Positions 60,530-61,694 of a stretch of 64,000 bases of DNA are shown here, piece by piece. Under the pieces are notes generated by a model. The model had not been told where the DNA came from, searched no databases, and was given only the letters and a program-made list of their open reading frames with translations. The stretch lies in NCBI RefSeq assembly GCF_009914755.1, contig NC_060940.1; one strand, given 5' to 3'. This DNA comes from the human T2T-CHM13v2.0 reference genome, Homo sapiens. Every line of letters begins with the position of its first letter. Positions within the stretch are counted from its first letter, which is position 1. Both the position numbers and the translations under genes were made by a program.

Positions 60530-61694
60530 CTAAGCTGATTTCCTGGTGAGCTCTGGGAAATTCTTCCTGACTAATGGGTTGTTTCAGCATTGCAGTCTTG
60601 CTCTTTCTGTGGATCCAGATTCGGAAAAGATTGTGCCTTTTGGTGAAACTCCTGAATCTACAGGAGATAATCGAAAAGGCTGAAGGTCTGTGCAGATGGC
60701 TGGTGCTGCTGCTCAAGCAGAAAGAGAAACTTCTTTGTGGCTTGTGTCTGCTCCCAACACAGGAGAGACTTGGGGTGTCCAGTCAGCTGTGGTGCTCCTA
60801 CTTTGGATTCTCATTGAAGCTGAGGCTTCCTCTTTAAGGACACACCTGCCAGGCCAGCATGCTCATGGTCCTTGTCCTCCTGGCACATTCTTTGGTACAG
60901 AGGTTAAGATCCTGATGATGTGAGAGTGTGCCTCCTAGAGTTGGTCCTGTTGACACATGGCCCCTGAGTGCCACGGAGGTTTGGAGATCTCTTTTGTATG
61001 CAGGGCCTGGATGAGCTGGTGCATTGCCACCCTTGATGCCTGACTTGGGCAGCCCACAGAGGGATCCCAGGGACCATAAGATGTGTATGGTAGAGGAAGA
61101 ACTGGTACAACTGACCCTTTGCTGGTGAATGGATTGAAGGCAGGAAGAAGATAGGTTCTTCTTGGATAGATGTACAGGTGGCCTTGCTGCAGCTGAACAG
61201 TCAGGTGAAGCCTCTCACTTAGGCCTAGTGCTGGAGAATTTACAGGCCCACTTCTGCTCTAGCCTGCACGACTGATCCTTTGATCTGACACCAGATCTGA
61301 ATTCTGGACTCTGGAATGCCTGTCTGTTTTACCAGTTTCTCTTTGGTGGTGATGCTAGGAAAGCAATTTTTCTCAAAGGCTTGGATGTGGACACTAGTCT
61401 GGTATCTAATAATTGCTGCCCACTTTTTCCTGACTTCTTGGGAGAGGCATTCATGAGTCCAAAGCTGAGGTCAAAATCACTTCTGTCTTATCTGACATTA
61501 TCTCTCAAAGCAAATCTGGATTCTAGCCTCCAGAATGCCCATTTCTTGGGCCAGTTTTTCACTGGTAAATCTGCAAGGGTACAGGTTCCATTTAAACCAT
61601 GCTGGTTGGGTATCCTTTTGACTTGGCATAAAATACTTCTCCTTCATTATGATTCACTTGGGTGAAAGCCAACAGAAAGTCTGGAAAGATCCAC
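60530..61694 (-). pseudogene. Intronless double-homeobox (DUXB/DUXBL-like) retro-pseudogene with DUX4/DUXC-like C-terminal motifs
   Basis: HD1 (~61652-61480) S**RRSIL-PSQKDTQPAWFKWNLYPCRFTSEKLAQEMGILEARIQICFER; HD2 (~61434-61262) [50 protein letters not shown]. No intron at the IQ|IW position. C-terminus SLFDYLL*IQEFHQKAQSF...LKQPISQEEF. Multiple stops and frameshifts. Confidence 0.9.

What the first reader, a model, noticed from the sequence alone, without database searches (positions are those of the whole stretch)
60530..61694. Unflagged double-homeobox retrocopy joining a DUXB/DUXBL body to a DUX4/DUXC-type activation tail
Seen: two PRD-class homeodomains on the minus strand with no intron at the usual DUX intron site (atc cag|att, att cag|atc), so this is an mRNA-derived copy. 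HD1 (SQKDT..WF..N.YP...EKLAQEMGI) and HD2 ([32 protein letters not shown]) look closest to DUXBL/DUXB. The region after HD2 (SRSGPVNS..SERLHLTV...PVLP...PWDP....SQ...QALH) follows the DUXB mid-region as I recall it. The end instead reads SLFDYLL*IQEFHQKAQSF...LKQPISQEEF-RAHQEI, which parallels DUX4 LLLDELLASPEFLQQAQPL...LEAPLSEEEYRALLEEL. Known: this acidic p300/CBP-binding tail typifies the DUXC/DUX4 clade and is lacking in human DUXB and mouse DUXBL. Inference: a fossil transcript of a now-lost primate DUX gene with ancestral architecture (DUXB/BL-type DNA binding plus an activation domain), relevant to the evolution of embryonic genome activation factors.
Basis: partly seen in the sequence, partly recalled or inferred. 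Interest (0 to 1): 0.85.

Follow-up and report, generated by a model that had tools for sequence, protein, structure and literature searches.

The report
Ancient dead copy of DUXBL-like gene
This is an old, broken, intron-free copy of a double-homeobox (DUX) gene that pairs DUXBL-like DNA-binding domains with the activation tail known from DUX4, a fossil hinting that this tail was once carried by the DUXBL lineage too.

Summary
Window 60530-61694 (minus strand) carries two homeoboxes, a DUX-type middle region and a DUXC/DUX4-type C-terminal domain (CTD). There is no intron at the two homeobox intron sites. One quoted parallel is wrong: RAHQEI is not the counterpart of RALLEEL, because a 19-nt deletion has removed that core.

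It is a dead processed pseudogene, with 7 stops, 3 frameshifts and several deletions. In trees it falls in a 98/95-supported clade with DUXBL and DUXB. It lies apart from Laurasiatherian DUXC, anthropoid DUX4, rodent Dux and DUXA. Topology tests are weak, and a DUX4-side placement is not rejected (p 0.14).

Its tail scores 20.9 bits against a CTD profile, versus at most 9.1 bits in 1000 shuffles.

The copy is not unique. A full-length chr12 copy and a family at about 24 further places show the same build.

The known DUXBL pseudogene at 10q22.3 also keeps a decayed CTD after its last exon. None of 30 DUXB/DUXBL proteins examined has a CTD. The likeliest parent is therefore the DUXBL lineage, before its tail was cut off.

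This bears modestly on DUX evolution. The locus itself has no likely function.

The parts
61695..61885 (-). Stretch derived from the 5' untranslated region. Through the chr12 copy it is homologous to an upstream exon of the DUXBL locus.
   Evidence: Window 61885-61608 aligns to the 5' part of chr12 copy L008 at 62% over 287 nt. That part of L008 matches the DUXBLP locus about 740 nt upstream of its HD1 exon at 68-70%. No direct window-to-DUXBLP hit was found here, so this link is transitive.
61480..61644 (-). Homeodomain 1. It is decayed: one stop, and a 6-nt deletion that removes the QN of WFQN.
   Evidence: Pfam PF00046 E 1.1e-3. Homeodomain profile hit. 72% nt identity to the DUXBLP HD1 exon over 140 nt, against 64% to DUXB. 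The 6-nt gap is seen.
61435..61479 (-). Short linker of 15 codons with two stops. It lacks 45 nt that the chr12 copy has, and has the same length as the DUX4 linker.
61258..61434 (-). Homeodomain 2, in the same frame as HD1.
   Evidence: Pfam E 3.3e-5. DUX4 HD2 chains in the PDB at E 7e-22..
60760..61257 (-). Middle region of the last exon, read in three frames. It is collinear with DUXBL, DUXB and DUXC. The WWDEW..AEWEP block is largely deleted.
   Evidence: Frameshift-aware alignments. 25 paralogous places in the genome. 65.6% nt identity to the DUXBLP last exon over 337 nt.
60598..60753 (-). Pre-CTD stretch and first half of the CTD (..QQHQPSAQTFSLFDYLL*IQEFHQKAQSF..), in the same frame as the homeodomains. 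The motif core is at 60625-60681.
   Evidence: CTD profile hit. 20.9 bits versus at most 9.1 in 1000 shuffles. The frame follows from the ORF coordinates: 61653-60810 = 843 = 3x281.
60558..60578 (-). Remnant of the second half of the CTD (PISQEEF). A 19-nt deletion that removes the QALLxxL core follows it directly.
   Evidence: DNA alignment with L002, L008, DUXBLP and DUX4.
60532..60555 (-). Terminal QSSPGNQL. This is the DUXC-type end of the ORF. The ancestral stop was lost through a 1-nt deletion.
60480..60531 (-). Short stretch of 3' untranslated sequence still alignable to the chr16 34-Mb copy. No clear poly(A) tail or target-site duplication was found.

Best explanation
The locus is an ancient, non-functional processed pseudogene.

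Origin. A spliced mRNA of a double-homeobox gene was reverse-transcribed and inserted. The copied mRNA included part of the 5' untranslated exon, both homeoboxes, the long last exon and a little 3' untranslated sequence. The copy then decayed neutrally. Its present pericentromeric position is probably secondary.

Parent. The parent belonged to the DUXBL/DUXB branch of the DUX family. The most likely parent is the DUXBL lineage, whose relic DUXBLP lies at 10q22.3.

Tail. When the copy was made, the parent's last exon still ran on into a DUXC/DUX4-type C-terminal activation domain. Extant DUXB and DUXBL proteins stop short of that domain.

Shown: the double homeobox, the absence of introns, the decay, the significance of the CTD, the sister copies, and the CTD relic at DUXBLP.

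Inferred: that DUXBL was the parent, that the CTD was still translated, and an age of roughly 80-100 million years.
For: Family. Two homeodomains.

Processed copy.
- The sequence is continuous where DUXA, DUXB and DUXBLP exons end at ..RIQ.
- It is continuous from HD1 to the CTD against pangolin DUXC, residues 25-443 of 443.
- Its 5' flank matches the 5' part of L008, which corresponds to an upstream DUXBLP exon lying about 740 nt from the HD1 exon in the genome.

Decay.
- 7 stops and 3 frameshifts.
- Deletions of 6 nt, 45 nt and 19 nt.
- GC 0.47 and CpG observed/expected 0.06.

Placement.
- Homeodomain tree: 51 rows, 116 columns. The copy lies inside a DUXB+DUXBL group with support 93/84.
- Full-length tree: 54 rows, 437 columns. 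A clade with 98/95 support holds DUXBL (12), DUXB (3), the three human copies (3) and 6 CTD-bearing or KRAB-fused proteins. Laurasiatherian DUXC (98/98) and anthropoid DUX4 (100/100) lie apart.
- Of six topologies tested, holding the copy together with Euarchontoglires DUXBL gives the best likelihood.
- Nucleotide identity of the last exon: 59.2% to DUXBLP, 55.7% to DUX4, 50.4% to DUXB.

CTD.
- Profile and shuffle scores.
- The chr16 34-Mb copy reads the whole CTD in one frame down to a DUXC-type stop (E 4.8e-11).
- The DUXBLP locus has a CTD relic at E 0.005: 24.2 bits against at most 15.4 in 1000 shuffles.
- The homeodomain frame equals the CTD frame in the window (coordinates) and in L008 (a single-frame HSP).
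- The armadillo DUXBL and elephant DUXB ORFs run in frame into the pre-CTD region and stop at different points.
Against: Placement is soft.
- The copy has the longest end branch among the pseudogenes (0.83) and a deviant amino-acid make-up.
- The three human copies sit in an unresolved polytomy.
- The AU test rejects a Laurasiatherian DUXC placement only at p 0.047, for a group named after the tree had been seen.
- Under LG+F+G4, none of five alternatives is rejected. This includes anthropoid DUX4 (log-likelihood difference 25, p 0.14).
- A six-sequence DNA tree of the last exon puts the window copy on the DUX4 side of a 98%-supported split.
- The linker has the same length as in DUX4.

Other weaknesses.
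- Identity to DUXBLP is no higher than identity to the sister copies.
- No poly(A) tail or target-site duplication was found.
- The chr16 34-Mb copy has its CTD one base out of frame with HD2. Translation of the CTD in the parent is therefore not proven.
- In a search space of 622,540 residues, the window's CTD piece alone has E 0.47.
Confidence: 0.6

Rival explanations
1. The copy belongs to the DUX4 side. It would be an old retrocopy of the lost Euarchontan DUXC or proto-DUX4 gene, a sister of the retrogene that later became DUX4 in D4Z4. It looks DUXBL-like only because DUX4 itself has since diverged under extreme GC enrichment.
For: - The six-sequence DNA tree has a {window, DUX4} split with 98% support.
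- DUX4 is closer to the window copy (55.7% nt) than to L002 (53.7), L008 (48.8), DUXBLP (47.4) or DUXB (44.2).
- The window and DUX4 both lack the same length of 45 nt in the linker. They align over 390 nt at 65% with only the 6-nt gap.
- Both read ER after the WFQN position.
- The AU test does not reject window + anthropoid DUX4 (p 0.14).
- The whole length is collinear with DUXC.
Against: - The careful protein tree puts the copy in the DUXBL/DUXB clade at 98/95, with DUX4 outside.
- The DUX4 placement costs 25 log-likelihood units.
- The HD1 exon is 72% identical to DUXBLP against about 65% to DUX4.
- Short linkers of 11-17 residues recur in several DUXC-group proteins, so linker length is labile.
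- With DUX4 taken as outgroup, the DNA split only makes the window copy early-branching.
- This copy shows several other private deletions.
Confidence: 0.2
2. The parent was an ordinary, already truncated DUXBL or DUXB gene. On this reading the CTD-like tail was an untranslated relic in the 3' UTR of its mRNA, and the copy says nothing about a DUXBL-type protein with an activation domain.
For: - 0 of 30 DUXB/DUXBL proteins carry a CTD.
- The chr16 34-Mb copy has its CTD out of frame with HD2 (net +1).
- L008, L002 and DUXBLP each need a frameshift between the WEP block and the CTD.
- Neutral DNA of this age would still be recognisable.
Against: - The frameshifts of L008 and L002 lie at different places. 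The shared stretch is in frame with the upstream part in L008 and with the CTD in L002.
- The homeodomains and the CTD share a frame in the window copy and in L008.
- Extant DUXB and DUXBL ORFs end at different points beyond the AEWEP block. Two of them run in frame into the pre-CTD region, which fits independent late truncations.
- The decayed CTD of L002 scores 45.7 bits, more than the intact CTD of Loxodonta P0220 at 34.7 bits.
Confidence: 0.3
3. The window copy is not a primary retrotransposition product. It would be a DNA-level duplicate of an older intronless DUX unit, moved into the chr16 pericentromere together with other duplicated pseudogenes.
For: - The window lies among pericentromeric pseudogenes such as FRG2JP, FGFR3P5 and TP53TG3GP (hub table).
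- Its 3' untranslated part is cut short compared with L002 and L008, which share more than 800 nt beyond the stop.
- No poly(A) tail or target-site duplication was found.
- The sister family has clearly spread by segmental duplication: four identical-scoring copies on contig 16.
Against: This does not change what the sequence is, since an intronless mRNA-derived unit is still its origin. No second copy closer than 70% nt identity exists in this genome.
Confidence: 0.4

Closest known systems
DUXBL / human DUXBLP (10q22.3)
   Same: - Homeodomains and middle region are the nearest match. Sapajus DUXBL is 43% identical over 124 and 74 residues. The DUXBLP HD1 exon is 72% identical at the nucleotide level.
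- Both fall in the same 98/95 clade.
- The DUXBLP locus also has a CTD relic after its last exon.
   Different: - DUXBLP has introns and lies in conserved synteny. The window copy is intronless and lies elsewhere.
- Annotated DUXBL proteins stop before the CTD (0 of 30).
- Nucleotide identity is only 59-72%, so the split is old.
DUX4 (D4Z4 retrogene) and DUX4-like copies
   Same: - Both are intronless double-homeobox units with the same CTD and the same linker length.
- 44.8% amino-acid identity over HD1-linker-HD2.
   Different: - DUX4 is GC-rich (0.73 against 0.47) and embedded in 3.3-kb repeats.
- It lies outside the clade that holds the window copy.
- The hundreds of DUX4-like copies match only the homeobox part, at 66-74% nt identity.
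DUXC of Laurasiatheria and Xenarthra
   Same: Full-length collinearity, including the pre-CTD stretch, both CTD halves and the ..SPG.. ending.
   Different: - DUXC has introns.
- Laurasiatherian DUXC forms its own 98/98 clade.
- Holding the window copy with that clade costs 18 log-likelihood units (p 0.047).
DUXA processed pseudogenes (DUXAP1-10)
   Same: [quoted passage not shown]
   Different: DUXA homeodomains form a separate 100/100 clade. DUXA lacks the long last exon and the CTD.
Afrotherian intronless 'DUX4' (Loxodonta P0220, Echinops P0260)
   Same: In my tree these CTD-bearing proteins fall in the same 98/95 clade as DUXBL, DUXB and the window copy. The wording of the CTD linker is very close..QSFLNADPQEE.. 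in P0220, against ..QSFRNADPQEE.. in the chr16 34-Mb copy (L002) and ..QSFPNLDPQKE.. in the window.
   Different: They are intact genes of another superorder and form their own 97/89 subclade together with KRAB-fused forms.

Membership tests
DUX (double homeobox) family | Two PRD-like homeodomains in tandem in one reading frame | tested here: met
   HD1 and HD2 share one frame (ORF coordinates).
Processed pseudogene (retrocopy) | No introns at the positions where the parent family has them | tested here: met
   Human DUXA, DUXB and DUXBLP exons end after ..RIQ in each homeobox, and the window is continuous there. For the 5' exon junction the evidence is transitive, through L008.
Processed pseudogene (retrocopy) | Poly(A) tail and target-site duplications | tested here: inconclusive
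   Neither was recognisable. There is only a short A-rich run about 110 nt after the old stop. At this age they may have decayed.
Processed pseudogene (retrocopy) | Disabling mutations | tested here: met
   7 stops and 3 frameshifts against P0107. Deletions of 6, 45 and 19 nt.
DUXBL/DUXB clade | Homeodomains and body cluster with DUXBL or DUXB | tested here: met
   Support 93/84 in the homeodomain tree and 98/95 for the wider clade. Support is moderate, and the alternatives are not rejected.
DUXBL/DUXB clade | Synteny (TMEM254/ANXA11 for DUXBL; TERF2IP for DUXB) | tested here: not met
   The window is at C16:38.9 Mb. DUXB was found at C16:81.74 Mb next to the Rap1_C hit and DUXBLP at C10:80.88 Mb. 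This is expected for a retrocopy.
DUXBL/DUXB clade | ORF ends just after the WWDEW..AEWEP block, with no CTD | tested here: not met
   The block is largely deleted in the window. A CTD follows.
DUXC/DUX4/Dux group | Conserved C-terminal domain of about 55 residues | tested here: met
   20.9 bits against at most 9.1 in 1000 shuffles. The core of the second half is deleted.
DUXC/DUX4/Dux group | Homeodomains cluster with DUXC or DUX4 | tested here: inconclusive
   They do not do so in the best trees. AU p is 0.047 for Laurasiatherian DUXC and 0.14 for anthropoid DUX4.
DUX4-like (D4Z4-type) copies | GC-rich 3.3-kb repeat context | tested here: not met
   GC 0.47 and CpG observed/expected 0.06, against 0.73 and 0.76 for the DUX4 ORF. 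The locus is a single copy with no tandem unit.
DUXA and DUXAP | DUXA-type homeodomains and a short protein | tested here: not met
   The DUXA clade is separate at 100/100.

The most novel reading that the evidence does not exclude
The activation domain of DUX4/DUXC may not have been gained by DUXC. It may be ancestral to the whole DUXB/DUXBL/DUXC stock and have been cut off repeatedly in DUXB and DUXBL. On this reading the human genome preserves at least three independent mRNA fossils of a DUXBL-type activator, all made before that loss: this copy, the chr12 copy and the multi-copy family. The CTD relic at DUXBLP itself is a fourth trace. Together they would allow the ancestral eutherian DUX activator to be inferred and tested.
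Probability: 0.45. Interest if true: 0.6.

Novelty: new member of a known kind. Interest (0 to 1): 0.45.

Why it matters
DUX factors start embryonic genome activation, and the CTD is what makes DUX4 a strong and toxic activator. Two views of its origin are in print. Leidenroth and Hewitt 2010 (PMC3004920, passages read) say that DUXB and Duxbl lack the CTD, but note that it might once have been present in all paralogues. Budillon et al. 2026 (PMC13558733, sections 6, 9 and 15 and passages read) draw DUXC as gaining the CTD. A DUXBL-like fossil with a CTD, its sister copies and a CTD relic at DUXBLP all favour ancestral presence followed by loss. The locus itself is dead, and no effect on human biology is expected.

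Tried and rejected
- Chance or non-homologous tail: rejected by the profile and shuffle test and by DNA homology to copies with a clear CTD.
- DUXA pseudogene: rejected by the trees.
- Ordinary D4Z4-type DUX4-like copy: rejected by base composition, by the lack of repeat context and by 55-65% nt identity.
- Recent DUXB retrocopy: the protein search with the middle region found no hit at the DUXB locus, and last-exon nt identity is only 50.4%.
- CTD relic in the human DUXB 3' region: by eye there is a TETDLWQQ-like stretch out of frame, followed by an Alu. The profile gives only 0.7 bits, matched or exceeded by 229 of 1000 shuffles. I make no claim here.
- Shared linker deletion as proof of kinship with DUX4: not accepted, because short linkers recur in the family and a three-sequence alignment forces the gaps to coincide.
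- Poly(A) tail or target-site duplication: none found.
- Earlier findings of this scan were not open.
- Literature searches and passages read in PMC2211742, PMC3141429 and PMC4584094 gave no description of this copy. GENCODE/HAVANA pseudogene tables and the supplements of these papers were not seen and may list it under a DUX4L name.
- The treekit AU test of window + anthropoid DUX4 was started but left unfinished. A faster test under a simpler model replaced it.

Full report
**What is there**

On the minus strand, window 61653-61240 is one reading frame with three stops. It holds two homeodomains. Pfam Homeodomain gives E 1.1e-3 and 3.3e-5. HD2 matches the second homeodomain of DUX4 in solved structures at E 7e-22.

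Downstream, in shifted frames, the sequence follows the long last exon of DUX genes.

A frameshift-aware alignment of my own aligns window 60450-61720 to pangolin DUXC (P0107, Smutsia). It covers residues 25 to 443 of 443, with 3 frameshifts, 7 stops and 38% identity.

**No introns**

I fetched human DUXB, DUXA, DUX4 and the DUXBL pseudogene from the same genome. In DUXA, DUXB and DUXBLP each homeobox exon ends right after ..RIQ. The window runs through that point in both homeoboxes. It also runs through the linker and into the last exon.

The 190 nt upstream of HD1 align to the 5' part of a sister copy on contig 12, L008 (62% over 287 nt). That part of L008 matches the DUXBLP locus about 740 nt upstream of its HD1 exon (68-70%). 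L008 therefore carries a spliced exon junction. The window copy probably does too, but this is inferred through L008.

No poly(A) tail or target-site duplication can be recognised.

**Decay**

- 7 stops and 3 frameshifts.
- A 6-nt deletion that takes out the QN of WFQN in HD1.
- 45 nt missing from the linker relative to L008.
- Most of the WWDEW..AEWEP block is missing.
- A 19-nt deletion in the CTD.
- GC is 0.47 and CpG observed/expected is 0.06. The DUX4 ORF has 0.73 and 0.76.

**The tail**

I built a profile from the C-terminal domains of 20 proteins: DUXC, DUX4 and Dux types, with no human pseudogene.

| Sequence searched | E-value over 622,540 residues | Best score on the 300-nt tail | Best of 1000 dinucleotide shuffles |
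|---|---|---|---|
| DUX4 | 3e-18 | not tested | not tested |
| chr16 34-Mb copy (L002) | 4.8e-11 | 45.7 bits | 9.8 bits |
| DUXBLP locus | 0.005 | 24.2 bits | 15.4 bits |
| chr12 copy (L008) | 0.21 | 17.5 bits | 9.0 bits |
| window 60753-60598 | 0.47 | 20.9 bits | 9.1 bits |

For each tail tested, 0 of 1000 shuffles reached the observed score.

L002 reads the whole CTD in one frame down to a DUXC-type ..SSPGDQL stop. The window tail aligns to L002 at the DNA level (63% over 341 nt, E 2e-20).

The window has lost the 19 nt that encode QALLxxL, and what follows ..QEEF is QSSPGNQL.

**Relatives in the genome**

The copy itself is single; the next best DNA match has 70% identity. The middle region finds 25 other places at E of 0.0036 or better:

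- five on contig 16, four of them identical in score and carrying a 173-codon open frame;
- four on contig 7;
- two on contig 8;
- one each on contigs 1 and 12;
- twelve on contig 24.

Most of these are 5'-truncated near HD2. The contig-12 copy is full length. Over 389 residues it aligns to pangolin DUXC in a single frame (E 4e-49).

**Which DUX gene**

The homeodomain tree has 51 rows and 116 columns. It puts the window copy and the two sister lineages inside a DUXB+DUXBL group (93/84).

The full-length tree has 54 rows and 437 columns. It gives a 98/95 clade of 24 rows:

- DUXBL, 12 rows;
- DUXB, 3 rows;
- the three human copies;
- five Afrotherian proteins, namely CTD-bearing P0220 and P0260 and the KRAB-fused forms;
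- unnamed CTD-bearing P0125.

The human copies sit in an unresolved polytomy inside this clade. Laurasiatherian DUXC (98/98), anthropoid DUX4 (100/100), Dux (100/100) and DUXA (100/100) are separate.

The tests are weak. Holding the window copy with Laurasiatherian DUXC costs 18.1 log-likelihood units (AU p 0.047). I named that group after seeing the tree.

| Topology tested under LG+F+G4, fast searches | AU p |
|---|---|
| window + Euarchontoglires DUXBL (best likelihood) | 0.74 |
| unconstrained tree | 0.52 |
| the three human copies as one clade | 0.46 |
| window + primate DUXBL | 0.34 |
| window + DUXB | 0.18 |
| window + anthropoid DUX4 (25 log-likelihood units worse) | 0.14 |

None of these is rejected.

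Against my reading, a six-sequence DNA tree of the last exon has a 98% split with the window copy and DUX4 on one side. DUX4 is also closer to the window copy than to any other human sequence compared, and the two share linker length.

**DUXBLP has a CTD relic**

At the 10q22.3 locus the remaining part of the last exon continues without a break. It runs through a decayed WWDEW-type block and a pre-CTD stretch into a recognisable CTD with a ..GSSPRL end. Beyond that, 170-200 nt of 3' sequence are shared with L008.

None of 30 DUXB or DUXBL proteins in my set has a CTD hit. This agrees with the literature.

Their ORFs end at different points after AEWEP. Those of armadillo DUXBL and elephant DUXB run in frame into the pre-CTD region. 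That pattern fits repeated truncation of a longer ancestral ORF.

**Was the CTD translated in the parent?**

This is not shown.

For translation:
- The homeodomain frame equals the CTD frame in the window (coordinates) and in L008.
- The frameshifts of L008 and L002 near the WEP block lie at different places.
- The decayed CTD of L002 scores higher than the intact one of elephant P0220.

Against translation:
- L002 is net +1 out of frame.
- All copies need some shift in this stretch.

**Age**

End branches of the DNA tree are 0.165-0.21 substitutions per site for the three copies and DUXBLP. The human neutral rate I use here is recalled, not computed. With it, the copies date to roughly the time of the primate-rodent split or earlier. 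This is inference only.

**Literature**

- PMC3004920 (passages read) names DUXBLP at 10q22.3 and says DUXB and Duxbl lack the CTD. It notes that the CTD could once have been present in all paralogues.
[quoted passage not shown] It draws DUXC as gaining the CTD.
- PMC2211742, PMC3141429 and PMC4584094 (passages read) list DUXA pseudogenes, DUX4-like copies and the DUXBL relic, but not this copy.
- Searches found no description of it.
- Supplements and GENCODE tables were not seen.

**Verdict**

This is a real, unannotated, dead DUX retrocopy. The simplest parent is DUXBL before it lost its tail. A DUX4-side origin remains possible.

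Noticed in passing
L022 4584-4721 (-), i.e. G000 C10:80882584-80882721: The human DUXBL pseudogene locus keeps a decayed DUXC/DUX4-type C-terminal domain directly after its last-exon coding part. 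Profile E is 0.005, and the score is 24.2 bits against at most 15.4 in 1000 shuffles. I found no mention of this in the papers read.
   Followed up: yes
L008, i.e. G000 C12:61577392-61581036 (-): A full-length intronless DUXBL-like copy with both homeodomains, a long linker, the WWDEW block and a CTD. Its 5' part matches an exon about 740 nt upstream of the DUXBLP HD1 exon, and also matches the DUXB locus at 65%.
   Followed up: partly
L002-L005 and L011-L014 (G000 C16 at 32.6, 33.1, 33.6 and 34.3 Mb); also C16:38.60 Mb and contigs 7, 8, 1 and 24: A 5'-truncated sister family of about 24 places. The four contig-16 copies have a 173-codon open frame over HD2 and the middle region, and a CTD that is open in one frame down to a DUXC-type stop.
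   Followed up: partly
L027 about 6930-7230 (-), 3' of human DUXB: By eye, a TETDLWQQ-like pre-CTD stretch lies one base out of frame after the DUXB stop, followed by an Alu. The CTD profile gives no significant score (0.7 bits, matched or exceeded by 229 of 1000 shuffles).
   Followed up: partly
P0006, P0007 (Trichechus, Elephantulus): Predicted Afrotherian proteins that fuse a KRAB box (PF01352) to two DUX homeodomains. They cluster with the elephant CTD-bearing DUX4-like protein.
   Followed up: no
window 63400-63600 and 61950-62180: Stretches that recur, in either orientation, in the flanks of several sister loci. They are probably common interspersed repeats and not part of the DUX copy.
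   Followed up: no
P0273 (Homo sapiens hCG1999152): A database protein that joins an FRG2 domain (PF15315) to DUX4-type homeodomains. It looks like a gene-prediction fusion across neighbouring 4q35-type units.
   Followed up: no
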